Positions 8,332 through 14,985 of a stretch of 38,076 nucleotides of DNA are shown here, piece by piece. The position numbers were made by a program, and so were the translations under genes. The DNA lies in the IMG/VR virus record IMGVR_UViG_3300016666_000240, positions 1-38,076 of that record; one strand, written 5' to 3'. The first letter of the stretch is position 1. Each line of letters starts with the position of its first letter. Under the pieces are notes generated by a model that saw only the letters and a list, made by a program, of their open reading frames with translations, did not search any database and was not told where the DNA came from. This DNA comes from a virus (Duplodnaviria > Caudoviricetes).

Positions 8332-8535
8332 TTAGTGGGTGATTTGGGAAGCGATTTCGCGCTTGTAGTCGGCGAGGCCGCGCAAGATCAGAAAGCGCAA
8401 TAGCCAGGCACGGGATCGTTCTTGCTTGGCGGCAATGGCTTCAACCTCCAGCACTTCATCAGGCGCCAGGCGGACGCCCAAAGGCTGCGAAGTGACGCCC
8501 TTGGGAGTGCGCCCGATTTTGGATACGTTTTTCAT
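8332..8535 (-). CDS. CopG/RHH-like regulator, Cox/Cro-position first gene of early operon (67 aa)
   Basis: LGVRLAPDEVLEVEAIAAKQERSRAWLLRFLILRGL; divergent from the repressor. Confidence 0.75.
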   Translation of the reverse strand: MKNVSKIGRTPKGVTSQPLGVRLAPDEVLEVEAIAAKQERSRAWLLRFLILRGLADYKREIASQITH

Positions 8536-8537
8536 AA

Positions 8538-8546
8538 TGTTATGAT
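8538..8546 (+). promoter_or_regulatory. Candidate lysogenic (repressor) promoter, extended -10 TGtTATGAT
   Basis: TG-n-TATGAT about 70 bp upstream of the repressor ATG, facing the lytic promoter. Confidence 0.5.
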
Positions 8547-8570: not shown

Positions 8571-8599
8571 ACTATAGTGGACGAATGTCCACATGTCAA
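8571..8599 (-). promoter_or_regulatory. Early lytic sigma70 promoter TTGACA-N17-TATAGT
   Basis: Plus strand TGTCAA (8594-8599) and ACTATA (8571-8576) give a near-consensus promoter pointing into the early operon. Confidence 0.8.
8577..8592. promoter_or_regulatory. Probable repressor operator GTGGAC-gaat-GTCCAC
   Basis: Inverted repeat filling the spacer of the early promoter; degenerate copy GTGGTCatatGTCGTA at 8608-8623 over the repressor start. Confidence 0.7.
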
Positions 8600-8615: not shown

Positions 8616-9077
8616 ATGTCGTATTTCAAAGATCGTCTTCGCGCCGAACGAAAGCGTTTGGGCTTGAGCCAGGAGAAGTTTGCGGCCCTGGCTGGCGTAA
8701 CAAAAGACACACAATTAAATTATGAGAGTGGCTCTAGGAAGCCCGATTCTGACTACCTGATAGCTATTTGCGGGGCCGGGGTGGATTCCCACTTTTTATT
8801 GCATGGCACGCCATCTTCGGACGAGCTACCTGCAGAGGAAAGCGAGTTGCTGCTAGGTTTTCGAAAGTTAGATCTTCGGGGAAAGTTGCGTCTGCTAGGG
8901 CTTGTTGAGGGTATGGCAGAAGGAACAGCGCCAACTCCAACTCCAGCTCCTGCGGCAGCTTCGCAGACCCAGCGCAAGCAAAAGATCACTATCAAAGGCG
9001 CAGTCGGACATCAGGTTAATGGTGACGTTGCCGGCCCCTTGACCGTCAATGTTGCCAATAAAAAGACTATTAAATGA
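8616..9077 (+). CDS. XRE-family HTH prophage repressor (153 aa) with C-terminal beta-rich tail and no S24 peptidase domain
   Basis: RLRAERKRLGLSQEKFAALAGVTKDTQLNYESGSRKP HTH; divergent from the early operon. Confidence 0.9.
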   Translation: MSYFKDRLRAERKRLGLSQEKFAALAGVTKDTQLNYESGSRKPDSDYLIAICGAGVDSHFLLHGTPSSDELPAEESELLLGFRKLDLRGKLRLLGLVEGMAEGTAPTPTPAPAAASQTQRKQKITIKGAVGHQVNGDVAGPLTVNVANKKTIK

Positions 9078-9424
9078 AGAAGAAAATACTGCTGGTAGTT
9101 ACTTTAGGCTTTGGCATGTCAAGTGTTTTTGCTGGCCCGTCAAAATTCAAGGCGGAGGATGTTGTGGAACCTATAGCACCGACTATCGCGTGCATATCTG
9201 CTGAAGATTTGATTACCGGGTTTAAATACGCAAGCGCAGGGGAGCAAACTCGATTACAGGCACTGTTTGATTCAAAGCGATGCCTACTAACAGGCCCTGG
9301 AGATAGGCTGAAAGTGATCACTGTTGAAAACTCACCTCTAATTGAGGCGGTTCCTGTTTCAGTTAAAGGTGCAGTGAATGGGATTCATATTGCCGAGCCG
9401 AACTATAGAAAAGTAAAAAAATAG
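9074..9424 (+). CDS. Secreted/periplasmic protein (116 aa, signal peptide, two Cys)
   Basis: MKKKILLVVTLGFGMSSVFA signal peptide; ATGA overlap with the repressor stop. Confidence 0.75.
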   Translation: MKKKILLVVTLGFGMSSVFAGPSKFKAEDVVEPIAPTIACISAEDLITGFKYASAGEQTRLQALFDSKRCLLTGPGDRLKVITVENSPLIEAVPVSVKGAVNGIHIAEPNYRKVKK

Positions 9425-9472
9425 GCCAGCAGTATCGTAAGGCGTCGTGAGAAATAGAGTTGGATTGGAAAA

Positions 9473-10132
9473 ATGGCAGAGAAAGTAGAATTTAAGCGGC
9501 ATGTTAGTAGCGCCGTGATGGGTGACTTGAATGAGGCGCCGCGCCAAAGCAACGTAGTAAATCTCACGATAGGCTCAAAAACTGAATTTCAGCCGCTGAC
9601 AAAGCTACAGCGGCAAGATGTAACGGCCAAGGTCAAGGTACTGGTCGCCCTGGAAGGAGGCTCTCCACTGAATGTCTACCGAGTGTTGCTGAATAGTTTC
9701 GGCGCTGCCAACATGGATGCATTCCCAGGGGACAAGTACATGGCGGCCATGGAATTGCTCGATGCCCGCATTGTTGCGCAGCAAAGTGCTCCTGTGTCTG
9801 CGGTAGCGCCAAGTCCGCCTTCGCGCCTTGCGGCGGAACCGGCGATATCGTGCCTCGCCTGTACTCGTCATCAAGCCGAAATCAAGCGAATACGGGCGAT
9901 TGTCGTGGTGCAATGGGCCTTGCTGGTGGGAGCAATCCTGTTTTGTGGCTGGCTGTGGTTGCCTTCCGCTGTCGGCACTACTCCTAAATCGTCTTTAGAT
10001 ACAAGTTGTCTGGTCGATGGAAAGGGATATTCGATGGGAAGCTCTATCAAGATGCCGAACGGATCTATACGTGAATGCATGAACAACGGTCCGGAAGGGA
10101 GTCCGCGCTGGTCCCTTAGCGACAAAAAATAG
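9473..10132 (+). CDS. Bitopic membrane protein: N-terminal beta-motif, antirepressor ORF6C-like helical domain, CxxC, TM helix, C-terminal DUF1496/YnjH-like periplasmic domain
   Basis: PLTKLQRQDVTAKVK...VYRVLLNSFGAANMDAFPGDKYMAAMELL; CLAC; IVVVQWALLVGAILFCGWLWL; CLVDGKGYSMGSSIKMPNGSIREC...W. Domain names are by eye. Confidence 0.65.
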   Translation: MAEKVEFKRHVSSAVMGDLNEAPRQSNVVNLTIGSKTEFQPLTKLQRQDVTAKVKVLVALEGGSPLNVYRVLLNSFGAANMDAFPGDKYMAAMELLDARIVAQQSAPVSAVAPSPPSRLAAEPAISCLACTRHQAEIKRIRAIVVVQWALLVGAILFCGWLWLPSAVGTTPKSSLDTSCLVDGKGYSMGSSIKMPNGSIRECMNNGPEGSPRWSLSDKK

Positions 10133-12330: not shown

Positions 12331-14985
12331 TTAATCGTGGTCGCGCAGGGACGAGCGGATGCGTGCCGCTTTTTCACGGTCGCGTTGTTCCATTGCCGCA
12401 TACACGGCGCGTGCGATGGCCTGCGGATCGGAACCAGCTTGCGCCTGGATCGTGATTTCGATCTTGTCGCCCTGAATCGTCATGCCGGCGCCGAACCCGC
12501 CTTGTGACAGCGGAGCGCGCGTGTCAAAGGCGCTGGCGGGCAGGGCGGTGGCCGTGCCGATGGCGATGCCGGCGCCCAATTGCGTCAGGCGCTGCGCCAG
12601 GCCGGAAACCTTGGCAATCGGCGCACCTTCGCTGCGGTCCAGGCCCACGGCCAGGCCTTGCATGGTGTAGTCGCCGAGCTGGGCAAACACGCGGCTCGGG
12701 CTATGGATGCCCAGCTTTTCCTTGAACCAGGCAATGGTGCTGGAACCGGCATTGCTGATGGCGTCCTTGACGGCGCCCATGGACCCGGTGATGCCGTTGA
12801 CCAGGCCGCGCAGGATGTTGGCGCCGAAGTCGGTGAATTTGGCCGGCAGCTCGATGCCGAACCAGCCCAGCACGCCCGCGAACGCCTGGTAGAACACGCC
12901 CAGCGGCGACCAGTTGAGGATGAGGTTATGCACGCCAACGACGCCACCAGCAAAGGCGGCTTTGACCTGTGACCAGATATCCACGAAAAAGGCCTTGATC
13001 GGCTCCCAGTTTTTATAGATCAGGTAGGCGGCGCCGGCAATGGCCGTCACGGCCAGGCCAATCGGGTTAAGCATGAAGGCGCGCCCCAGCCAAAGCACGG
13101 CGCGCCCCGCCCACATGAAGGCGCCACCCAGGCCGCGCAGGATGGGCGCGAGTACGCCGCCCGTCACGCCCATTTTGGCAAACATGACGTGCAGCATGGC
13201 GTACGGGCCGATCAGGGCTGCAATGCCCAGCATCAGCGGGCCGAGTACCAGCAGGATGCCGGCAAGAATGGAGAAACCAACGATCATGACTTTGGCCAGT
13301 GTCGGGTTGCGCTCCATGAAGCCATTCAGGCGCTGCACGGCACTGATGGCCAGTTCCAGCCCCTGTGCATATAGCGGCAGGATTTTTTCGCCCATGGTGA
13401 GCTTGAGGTTGGCCAGCTTCGACTGCGCTTCCAGTTCCTTGCCGGCGGCCGAGTCGCGGCCCAGCTTTTCCAGCTGGCCGATATTGGCGGCGCCACGGTT
13501 GAGCTTTTCGTTTTTGTGGATCTGCACGCGCTGCAAGTACATCTGCGAATACAGGTTCGACGCGGTGCGGTTGGAAAAGATGCTGCCGATGGCGTCGAGC
13601 ACGTGCTTTTTCTCCGTGATGCCCTTCTTGGCCAGTTGCGGCAACAGCACTTTTTCCATCCACTCGAACTGATTTTCTCGGAACAGCTCGGAACCCAGCA
13701 GCGCACCGGGATCAAGAAAAGCAATTTGCCCCGCCTTGTCAGGCGTGACTTTGCTTTTGTCACCAATTAGGCCGAACTCATCCAGCTTTTTGACCGACCG
13801 TTTCGTCGTGCGGCCCTGGTATAAGTTCTGGTAGGCGCTCATCAGGGAAGTGCCGACGCGATTGCCGCTCATTTCCTGCACCAGCGGTTCCATCTGGTAG
13901 TAAAAGGCGTCATCTTTCAAGCCCTTGGCGGCGATGCCGCCCGTCTTGATCATGTTCAGCCATTCATTCGGGCCGACGCGCCCACCTGTCGCCGTGATGA
14001 CCTGCTGCACGATGTTGGCCTGAGCTTCGAACTTTTCCTTGCTCTCCAGGCCGCCGCGCAGCTCGATGACCTTGAGCATGTCCATGAACTTGCGTTCGTT
14101 GTCGGCGCCTTCTTCCTCACCAAAGAAGGCGTGATTGGCAAACTTCATCTTGGCCAGGGTAGGGGCGACCATTTCCGCATGGTGCACATCGGCAAAGGCG
14201 CTCATGCCGTCGCGCATGAGTTGCAGGTTGTCGAGCTTGCTGGTGCCGTAGGTCTTCATGTTGCGCGCGAAGGCGACGGCCTCGGCTGACACCTTGTCGC
14301 CCAGGCCCAGCGCGTTGACGCGTCCCACTTCCGTTTGATAGTGCTTGGCCTCGTTCAGCCCCTTAACGACGGGCGCACCGATGACGGCGCCCGTGGCGGT
14401 CGCGCCCGCGCCGGCCATGGCCAGGTTGCCCGCCTTGCTGCGCAGCTTGTCGGCGTGCTGGGTGGCGTTGGTGACACGCTGCTGCTTGGCGGCCGCGTTG
14501 GCCAGCTTCTGCTGCTGCAGCGTCATGGTTTTGTTGGTGGCCTCGATCTCGCGGCGCAAGGTGCGCTCGTGGTTGGCCAGGTCTTTGGTGCCGATGCCGG
14601 CGGCGCCCAAGCGCTCGCGCATGACTTGCAGTTGCTGCGCTTGCTGCTGACCTGCCGTCTTGAGGGCGCTGGCCGCCTTGACGGCGGCGTTAAACTCGCG
14701 CGTCATGGCGCGCGTGGGCGCTTCCGTCTGTTTCATCTTGGCGGCCAGGCTGGCCACCTTCTGCTGGGCCGCTTCCAGCTTGGTGCGCGTGGCGTCCAGG
14801 CCACCATGCAGCTCGCGGAATTTGCCGATGTTCTTTTGCTGCGCGTTGAGGTCGCGCAAGCGGTCACTGGTGGCCTTCAAGGCCTTGGCCGTGTCGCTGG
14901 AGCCGCCCATGATTTTCTTGAGCGGGCCGGTGATCTTGTCCAGCGCCGCAAACACTACCTGTAATTTCAGATCCCGACCAGCCAT
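12331..14985 (-). CDS. gpT: Tail tape measure protein (884 aa)
   Basis: Long helical Ala-rich protein, TM segments, KLGIHSPSRVF motif; between E/E' and U. Confidence 0.92.
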   Translation of the reverse strand: MAGRDLKLQVVFAALDKITGPLKKIMGGSSDTAKALKATSDRLRDLNAQQKNIGKFRELHGGLDATRTKLEAAQQKVASLAAKMKQTEAPTRAMTREFNAAVKAASALKTAGQQQAQQLQVMRERLGAAGIGTKDLANHERTLRREIEATNKTMTLQQQKLANAAAKQQRVTNATQHADKLRSKAGNLAMAGAGATATGAVIGAPVVKGLNEAKHYQTEVGRVNALGLGDKVSAEAVAFARNMKTYGTSKLDNLQLMRDGMSAFADVHHAEMVAPTLAKMKFANHAFFGEEEGADNERKFMDMLKVIELRGGLESKEKFEAQANIVQQVITATGGRVGPNEWLNMIKTGGIAAKGLKDDAFYYQMEPLVQEMSGNRVGTSLMSAYQNLYQGRTTKRSVKKLDEFGLIGDKSKVTPDKAGQIAFLDPGALLGSELFRENQFEWMEKVLLPQLAKKGITEKKHVLDAIGSIFSNRTASNLYSQMYLQRVQIHKNEKLNRGAANIGQLEKLGRDSAAGKELEAQSKLANLKLTMGEKILPLYAQGLELAISAVQRLNGFMERNPTLAKVMIVGFSILAGILLVLGPLMLGIAALIGPYAMLHVMFAKMGVTGGVLAPILRGLGGAFMWAGRAVLWLGRAFMLNPIGLAVTAIAGAAYLIYKNWEPIKAFFVDIWSQVKAAFAGGVVGVHNLILNWSPLGVFYQAFAGVLGWFGIELPAKFTDFGANILRGLVNGITGSMGAVKDAISNAGSSTIAWFKEKLGIHSPSRVFAQLGDYTMQGLAVGLDRSEGAPIAKVSGLAQRLTQLGAGIAIGTATALPASAFDTRAPLSQGGFGAGMTIQGDKIEITIQAQAGSDPQAIARAVYAAMEQRDREKAARIRSSLRDHD

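What the first reader, a model, noticed from the sequence alone, without database searches (positions are those of the whole stretch)
8982..9580. Matching beta-rich motif at the repressor C-terminus and the membrane protein N-terminus (homotypic, amyloid-signalling-like)
Seen: repressor residues 123-138 KITIKGAVGHQVNGDV align without gaps to residues 4-19 KVEFKRHVSSAVMGDL of the 219-aa protein (6/16 identical, plus I/V, I/F, G/S, V/L), each followed by a TVNV/VVNL strand. The repressor copy hangs on a flexible Pro/Ala linker (TAPTPTPAPAAAS). Established: in RHIM, HET-s and bacterial amyloid-signalling pairs, a receptor's N-terminal motif templates the matching C-terminal motif of an effector encoded next door. 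Inference: oligomerisation of the membrane protein co-assembles with the repressor tail and sequesters or activates it. The match is short and could be chance.
Basis: partly seen in the sequence, partly recalled or inferred. Interest (0 to 1): 0.8.

Follow-up and report, generated by a model that had tools for sequence, protein, structure and literature searches.

The report
Repressor tail mirrored in membrane partner
This prophage's repressor ends in a short glycine/valine-rich tag that is mirrored at the start of a nearby membrane protein, and the two tags change together across about a hundred prophages, which likely means the partner sticks to the repressor through the tag and would tune the dormancy-versus-lysis switch.

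Summary
The match is real. In this P2-like phage the repressor's C-terminal tag and the N-terminal tag of the 219-aa membrane protein belong to one motif: the two family profiles align exactly there (E 6e-7). The window's pair alone is modest (6/16, p=0.017) and among the weaker pairs. Across 110 loci both genes carry it, and cognate tags resemble each other more than non-cognate ones (p<=6e-4 after clustering; neighbour contrasts 25:8), without shared synonymous codons. Other motif versions, each matched within its pair, occur in E. coli P2-like prophages (514 of 5,426 genomes), Pseudomonas B3 and Burkholderia KS10, on several unrelated partners, some soluble. The dependence is one-sided: partners sit beside tailed repressors, but complete prophages keep a conserved tail without a partner. 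Best reading (inferred): the tail is the repressor's own beta-strand assembly module and the partner is a mimic that co-assembles with it, tethering or disabling it. Amyloid is untested; the RHIM signature and NLR/Bell architecture are absent. No paper found in ten searches; this scan noted the pairing before on at least eight other genomes.

The parts
8616..9077 (+). XRE/HTH_3 immunity-type repressor, 153 aa: HTH, two-helix second domain, Pro/Ala linker, motif tail, basic end; no peptidase S24 domain
   Evidence: Pfam HTH_3 E 1.7e-8 and no other domain; PHROG repressor families; AF2 model ordered to residue 103, low confidence beyond
8925..8963 (+). Pro/Ala linker (residues 104-116), variable among close relatives
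   Evidence: sequence; pLDDT <50 at 113-119; tails of relatives
8982..9053 (+). Repressor copy of the motif (residues 123-138) plus trailing strand (141-146)
   Evidence: 61 of 70 homologues found with residues 1-101 only carry it; aligned to the partner profile
9074..9424 (+). 116-aa signal-peptide protein inserted between the pair; accessory, absent from most loci
   Evidence: no Pfam/PHROG hit; gap between repressor and partner is -4 to about 160 nt in most loci
9473..10132 (+). 219-aa single-pass membrane partner (phrog_6521 'membrane protein'; related to phrog_5825)
   Evidence: phrog_6521 E 6.7e-18, phrog_5825 E 4.6e-5; AF2 model
9482..9571 (+). Partner copy of the motif (residues 4-19) plus trailing strand (27-33); predicted cytoplasmic and disordered as a monomer
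   Evidence: 82 of 88 homologues carry it in the first 50 aa; pLDDT about 50
9596..9790 (+). Cytoplasmic three-helix bundle (residues 42-106); weak likeness to ORF6C and to the C-terminal domains of phage annealases Sak and Red-beta
   Evidence: pLDDT 96-98; ORF6C in 2 of 65 members, best E 0.017; VIA Z 8.5, rmsd 1.5 A, 61 aligned to 8qe9, below the tool's caution level for helical bundles
9851..9862 (+). CxxC ahead of the long helix
   Evidence: in the consensus of alignment A1
9899..9955 (+). Predicted transmembrane helix (143-161), N-terminus inside
   Evidence: Kyte-Doolittle 2.3; 4 K/R before against 1 after
10007..10117 (+). Small beta-rich two-Cys domain, DUF1496-like, predicted periplasmic
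   Evidence: DUF1496 in 12 of 65 members at E<=0.05, best 1e-4; C179/C202 conserved
8332..8535 (-). Divergent Arc-like ribbon-helix-helix gene heading the early lytic operon (context of the switch)
   Evidence: phrog_3431 E 3.8e-10
8577..8592 (.). Perfect 6-4-6 inverted repeat between the divergent genes; candidate operator (untested)

Best explanation
The repressor's C-terminal tag is likely a beta-strand self-assembly module of the repressor, and the co-varying N-terminal tag of the membrane protein likely mimics it and would co-assemble with it, tethering repressor at the inner membrane and so tuning the lysogeny/lysis switch. Shown: both tags are one conserved motif, they co-vary at the protein level, several unrelated partner architectures carry the tag of their own repressor, and the tail persists without a partner while partners were not seen beside tail-less repressors. 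Inferred: physical binding; that the tail oligomerises the repressor in place of a CI-type C-terminal domain; that the partner is made in the lysogen with the repressor (same strand, downstream); that clustering through its periplasmic Cys domain is the input; and the direction, where I favour antagonism (sequestration leading to induction without repressor self-cleavage) at about 60:40 over stabilisation.
For: Profile-profile match confined to the tags. 110 of 110 partners and 109 of 110 repressors score for the motif; no control window of 111 exceeds 9.9 bits. Cognate 33 vs permuted 25, p<=6e-4 at 92 to 14 clusters, p 3e-4 to 0.016 under stricter clustering (53 to 5 clusters); nearest-neighbour swaps 25 for, 8 against, 11 ties of 44, p=0.002; identical codons 182 of 486 (37.4%) vs 38.0% non-cognate, p=0.60. 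Non-circular test, repressors found by body only and partner defined as next gene: 24.0 vs 16.4+/-0.9, p=5e-5, 49 loci. Distinct motif versions matched within pairs: E. coli, B3, Ps59, KS10, L283, L290, L304, L311. Partners with and without the three-helix domain, with one, two or no hydrophobic helices. Of 14 phage records inspected, 7 tail-less repressors have no tagged next gene and 6 of 7 tailed ones do. Partner-less clade of 11 loci: tail 18 synonymous/3 non-synonymous changes, linker 16/14.
Against: No experiment. The window's own pair is weak (score 20, median 29) and its partner lacks the conserved Gly/Gln. Several clades show little pair-specific co-variation (11 ties, 8 negative contrasts). 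18 of 65 tailed repressors found by body have no tagged partner in the fetched flank, and 9 have a partner remnant without the tag, so the partner is dispensable. Contrasts were matched by identity, not on a tree, so are not strictly independent. The position-weight matrix was trained on these families and also rings on antisense shadows (3 of 5 six-frame hits in the window). Single-chain AF2 models give both tags pLDDT 50-59 with no assembled beta structure.
Confidence: 0.5

Rival explanations
1. True amyloid signalling: the clustered partner nucleates an amyloid fold that templates conversion of the repressor tail, giving an all-or-none, possibly heritable, switch as in HET-s, RHIM or Bab/Agp.
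For: Layout (N-terminal on receptor, C-terminal on effector, neighbouring genes), about 25-residue length, Gly-broken strands, G/V/Q/N/I enrichment and L depletion match the description of BASS motifs; several sequence classes each matched in pairs; Bab/Agp itself lies in prophages.
Against: G-phi-Q-phi-G absent in 0 of 107 + 0 of 107; no NLR/TPR receptor or Bell effector; tail conserved without any partner, less expected of a pure receiver; tail is followed by a poly-Lys end and holds a conserved Pro in the repressor.
Confidence: 0.2
2. Both tags bind the same third factor (a host protease or adaptor, or another phage protein) and the partner acts as a decoy or co-substrate rather than binding the repressor.
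For: Terminal, disordered, short tags are typical of protease/adaptor signals (own knowledge); convergence on one ligand also yields similarity; tail kept without partner.
Against: Tags differ strongly between prophages of the same host group yet match within a pair (for example L008/L010/L027 against L011-L018); one tag is at a C-terminus and the other at an N-terminus; no further tagged gene found in the window or in 3 whole partner-less proviruses.
Confidence: 0.15
3. The system is real in the family but the window's partner tag has decayed and is uncoupled from its repressor.
For: Loss of the conserved Gly and Gln; 64 of 107 foreign partners match better; an inserted gene separates the pair.
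Against: The deviant form persists in a lineage (P0004-P0007, P0017, P0018, L037, L170) with the strand-face hydrophobics and Gly-Asp kept, and all 5 such loci with context carry the same His-substituted repressor tag, which may be a shifted specificity class.
Confidence: 0.25
4. The likeness comes from local DNA duplication or gene conversion, or from low-complexity chance, and has no function.
For: The two segments often lie within 100 nt of each other; G/V-rich composition.
Against: No excess of shared synonymous codons; conservation across Burkholderiales, Pseudomonas and E. coli phages; purifying selection on the tail.
Confidence: 0.04

Closest known systems
Bacterial amyloid signalling sequences BASS1-10 (Bell/NLR gene pairs; bioRxiv 10.1101/2020.01.06.895854)
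   Same: Short shared motif at the N-terminus of one protein and C-terminus of a neighbour; about 25 aa; G/N/Q/V/I-rich; several sequence classes matched within pairs; Pro-rich linker next to it
   Different: No NLR and no Bell, TIR, CHAT or hydrolase effector; the C-terminal carrier is a phage HTH repressor; hosts are unicellular Proteobacteria; tail kept without partner; fibril formation untested. That paper's main text has no 'HTH', 'phage' or 'transmembrane'
Bab/Agp (BASS11) antiphage system of E. coli (bioRxiv 10.1101/2024.11.07.622273)
   Same: Prophage-borne adjacent genes sharing a Gly-broken beta motif in Proteobacteria
   Different: Output there is cell death by a Bell-like domain triggered by a TPR-GreA/B-PIN sensor; here the output would be transcriptional and the genes form the phage's own immunity region
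RHIM / PP / BASS3
   Same: Central conserved Gln between Gly and hydrophobic residues
   Different: Core G-phi-Q-phi-G not present (0 of 107 in either partner); here Gln is followed by three residues before Gly
Phage antirepressors and CI-type repressors with an oligomerising C-terminal domain (lambda CI, 186 CI/Tum, P22 Ant; recalled, not from a call)
   Same: An accessory phage protein that would control the repressor by binding; C-terminal part used for repressor assembly; weak ORF6C likeness in the partner
   Different: No folded C-terminal or S24 domain; control would run through a shared peptide tag on a partner encoded in the repressor's own operon and usually membrane-anchored
PHROG families phrog_6521 and phrog_5825
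   Same: The partner belongs to them; annotated members in phiRSA1 (ORF33), RsoM1USA, phiX216, KS5
   Different: Annotated only as 'membrane protein' or unknown; no link to the repressor is recorded

Membership tests
BASS/FASS amyloid signalling pairs | Shared motif at N-terminus of one protein and C-terminus of a protein encoded nearby | tested here: met
BASS/FASS amyloid signalling pairs | Motifs of a pair are more alike than motifs of different pairs | tested here: met
BASS/FASS amyloid signalling pairs | G/N/Q/V/I-rich, K/P/L-poor composition, about 25 aa | tested here: met
   (G 18-19%, V 13-20%, Q 8%, L 1-2%) against section read
BASS/FASS amyloid signalling pairs | Receptor is an NLR or TPR-type sensor | tested here: not met
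   no such Pfam domain in 65 partners; 219-aa single-pass protein
BASS/FASS amyloid signalling pairs | Effector is a Bell/HeLo, TIR, CHAT, hydrolase or cyclase domain | tested here: not met
   HTH_3 repressor only
BASS/FASS amyloid signalling pairs | Motif forms cross-beta fibrils and cross-seeds its partner | not testable with these tools
   needs ThT, EM, ssNMR, seeding
BASS/FASS amyloid signalling pairs | Sequence match to one of the BASS1-11 profiles | not testable with these tools
   logos and profiles are in figures and supplements that could not be seen
RHIM/PP/BASS3 | Core G-phi-Q-phi-G | tested here: not met
   0 of 107 tails and 0 of 107 partner N-termini; signature from passage
XRE (HTH_3) phage immunity repressor | HTH_3 domain, divergent from an early operon with Arc-like, Ogr and replication A genes | tested here: met
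   homologues annotated as repressor in KS5, KS10, Carl1
RecA-cleavable CI repressor | Peptidase S24 C-terminal domain | tested here: not met
   no S24 hit; chain disordered after residue 103
ORF6C-domain antirepressor | ORF6C domain above threshold | tested here: inconclusive
   2 of 65 members, best E 0.017

The most novel reading that the evidence does not exclude
Temperate phages from E. coli to Burkholderiales run their lysogeny switch on a prion-like code: a membrane sensor nucleates an amyloid fold in the repressor's tail, with diversified tag versions insulating each prophage from co-resident ones, and one clade builds the membrane-bound form by slippage at an A9 run that fuses the repressor to the sensor's membrane part.
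Probability: 0.2. Interest if true: 0.93.

Novelty: new variant of a known kind. Interest (0 to 1): 0.72.

Why it matters
Many P2-like and Mu-like prophages have repressors without a self-cleaving domain, and what induces them is largely open (own knowledge). A co-evolving tag shared with a membrane protein names a concrete input path from the cell envelope to the switch and makes it testable with 25-residue peptides and single-gene deletions. The module is common (514 of 5,426 complete E. coli genomes; named Burkholderia, Ralstonia and Pseudomonas phages). If the tags are amyloid, it would extend amyloid signalling from cell death to transcriptional control of a phage decision.

Tried and rejected
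Single-chain AF2 left both tags unstructured. Foldseek on the partner: no match at E<=0.001; VIA best Z 8.5 for the three-helix bundle, a lead only. Tail peptide against PDB sequences: one chance hit, E 0.52; a recalled likeness to 8-residue triple-beta-helix repeats (T4 gp5 type) was therefore not supported or tested further. DNA duplication/gene conversion rejected. A third tagged gene in the window was sought: hits at 14845 and 16036 are antisense to tape-measure and sheath genes and 24917 is internal to a tail-fibre-region frame; the 16036 shadow recurs in three other proviruses. search_genome_index gave only 1 of 20 aligned genomes; order- and class-wide genome samples were nearly empty (5 of 401, 1 of 350). 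phrog_17822 matches both repressors and a partner and may be a natural fusion; not followed up. The L260 whole-record hit is the repressor's own tail, not a partner. Literature: ten searches returned no description of this pairing; the library lacks most subscription journals.

Full report
Context. The window is a whole 38,076-base virus record with P2-like genes: integrase, replication protein A, Ogr, Arc-like repressor; close relatives of both proteins are from Janthinobacterium. On the + strand, between the early operon and tail gene D, lie the repressor (8616-9077, HTH_3), a 116-aa signal-peptide protein (9074-9424) and the 219-aa membrane protein (9473-10132, phrog_6521).

The observation. 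Repressor 123-138 and partner 4-19 align with 6 of 16 identities (score 25); the best 16-mer score of 26 has shuffle p=0.017, and 0 of 24 other window N-termini reach it. So the pair alone is suggestive only.

Family conservation. Partner homologues (15, 75) give a 65-row alignment whose consensus begins F-x-G-D-V-G-Q-x-V-x-G-N-V with Gln and the last Gly at least 90% conserved; the window has Ser at that Gln. 82 of 88 homologues carry the motif in the first 50 residues; 61 of 70 repressor homologues found with residues 1-101 alone carry it; 0 of 111 control windows pass (the matrix was trained on these families). Profile-profile comparison of the two families aligns only the tags and their trailing strands (92%, E 5.9e-7).

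Cognate pairs. Loci came from viral contigs, GTDB genomes, metagenomes and named phages. Of 130 non-redundant rows, 110 had a partner N-terminus and an upstream HTH gene; 110 of 110 partners and 109 of 110 repressors scored for the motif. Three rows were dropped (two failed anchors, one second partner in L045), leaving 107. Cognate tags score about 33 against 25 for permuted pairs, p<=6e-4 with 92 to 14 clusters and p 3e-4 to 0.016 with 53 to 5 stricter clusters. Swapping partners between nearest neighbours lowers the score in 25 of 44 contrasts, raises it in 8, ties in 11 (p=0.002; 0.001-0.02 under other matchings). Codons at identical residues are shared no more often in cognate pairs (182 of 486, 37.4%) than in others (38.0%), so the likeness is kept at protein level. 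The window's pair scores 20 against a median of 29.

Reverse search. Repressors found by body only (108 distinct) allow a non-circular test with the next gene as partner: 77 had such a gene, 49 after collapsing similar tails; cognate 24.0 against 16.4+/-0.9, p=5e-5. New motif versions appear, each matched in its own pair: an Asn/Ala-Gly-Arg-Asp version in E. coli P2-like prophages (514 of 5,426 complete genomes hold at least 80% of that locus) and in Pseudomonas phages B3 and Ps59, others in KS10, L283, L290, L304 and L311. Of 16 such partners, 4 share the window partner's three-helix domain (E<=1.5e-5) and the rest do not; some have two hydrophobic helices and some none. The tag, not the carrier, is thus the common unit. 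I inspected 14 of 91 phage records, chosen for spread: 7 tail-less repressors had no tagged next gene; 6 of 7 tailed ones had (the partner is frameshifted in the 520873 record); Komp_PAO1_1 had none.

One-sided dependence. Of 65 body-found repressors with the window-type tail, 33 have a homologous partner with the tag, 4 an unrelated or distant tagged next gene, 1 a partner 2.4 kb away, 9 a partner remnant without the tag and 18 none in the fetched flank (four of the 18 have only about 1.35 kb of flank). Six proviruses of one partner-less clade, 92-100% complete, have no partner anywhere, and a six-frame scan of three found only the repressor tail and an antisense shadow. In 11 loci of that clade the tail shows 18 synonymous and 3 non-synonymous changes, the linker 16 and 14. 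The tail therefore has a job without the partner, most simply repressor self-assembly (inference).

Anatomy. AF2 gives the repressor an ordered HTH plus two helices to residue 103 and a low-confidence tail; the partner a low-confidence N-terminus, a confident three-helix bundle (42-106), a long helix holding the membrane segment and a small beta domain. Charge bias puts the tag in the cytoplasm. The bundle resembles the C-terminal domains of Sak and Red-beta (Z 8.5 and 6.7) and weakly ORF6C; the beta domain is DUF1496-like in 12 of 65 members. These are leads.

Mechanism. Best reading (0.5): the tail assembles repressor molecules through short Gly-broken beta strands, and the partner, made from the same strand, presents a mimic that joins the assembly and holds the repressor at the membrane; a periplasmic cue would cluster the partner and shift the balance, more likely toward derepression. 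Rivals: templated amyloid switch (0.2), shared third ligand (0.15), functionless likeness (0.04); separately, the window's own partner tag may have decayed (0.25). Binding, oligomer state, signal and direction are all unshown.

Known systems. It works like a BASS pair in layout, composition and pairwise matching, but is not a member on the features I could test: no NLR or Bell protein, and the RHIM/PP/BASS3 core is absent in 0 of 107 on both sides. Papers seen: bioRxiv 10.1101/2020.01.06.895854, found passages and section 9; bioRxiv 10.1101/2024.11.07.622273, abstract, outline and section 4; PMC8195603, found passages only, all in references; all others as search listings. BASS logos and pair tables sit in figures and supplements I could not see, so a sequence match to one BASS class is not excluded. 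Ten searches found no account of the pairing. Eight earlier notes of this scan, on other genomes, report the same pairing (none by sequence); I read them after my co-variation tests, and they are not independent evidence. The one-sided dependence and the A9 clade do not appear in the lines of those notes that were shown.

Verdict. A real, widespread, co-evolving tag pair in the immunity region of temperate phages, undescribed in the literature I could search; mechanism inferred; amyloid unproven. New variant of a known kind; interest 0.72.

Noticed in passing
L240:2400-2721, L247/L261/L262:2400-2721, L326/L327, L054 (repressor 3' ends): In one clade the repressor gene ends in a run of nine A, and a tag-less frame with the membrane helix and DUF1496-like domain is open through that run in the +1 frame with no evident ribosome-binding site: a candidate slippage fusion giving a membrane-anchored repressor. 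A9 in 7 of 10 tag-less loci against 5 of 104 with full partners, but the 7 are related and an in-frame ATG lies upstream.
   Followed up: partly
phrog_17822: This 267-position family matches repressors at positions 4-103 and a partner domain at 128-195: possible natural repressor-partner fusion.
   Followed up: no
window 9074-9424: The slot between repressor and partner or gene D is a variable accessory site; a similar signal-peptide protein appears there in L249 and IS elements in phiRSA1 and RsoM1USA.
   Followed up: no
L045-L048, L114-L125, L333, L338: Short partners keep tag, membrane helix and Cys domain but lack all or most of the three-helix domain (20 loci).
   Followed up: partly
L283, L290, L304, L183 (KS10 gp12): Tagged partners with no hydrophobic helix; L304 appears to repeat the tag.
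   Followed up: partly
window 8532-8545 and 8577-8592: Two perfect inverted repeats between the divergent Arc-like gene and the repressor; candidate operators.
   Followed up: no
L182:1891-2512 (Escherichia phage 520873): The partner gene is in pieces in this record but intact in E. coli chromosomes such as L193.
   Followed up: partly
window 16036 (+ strand, antisense to the sheath gene): A strong match to the motif in the antisense frame recurs in three other proviruses; most likely a shadow of the conserved sheath C-terminus.
   Followed up: partly
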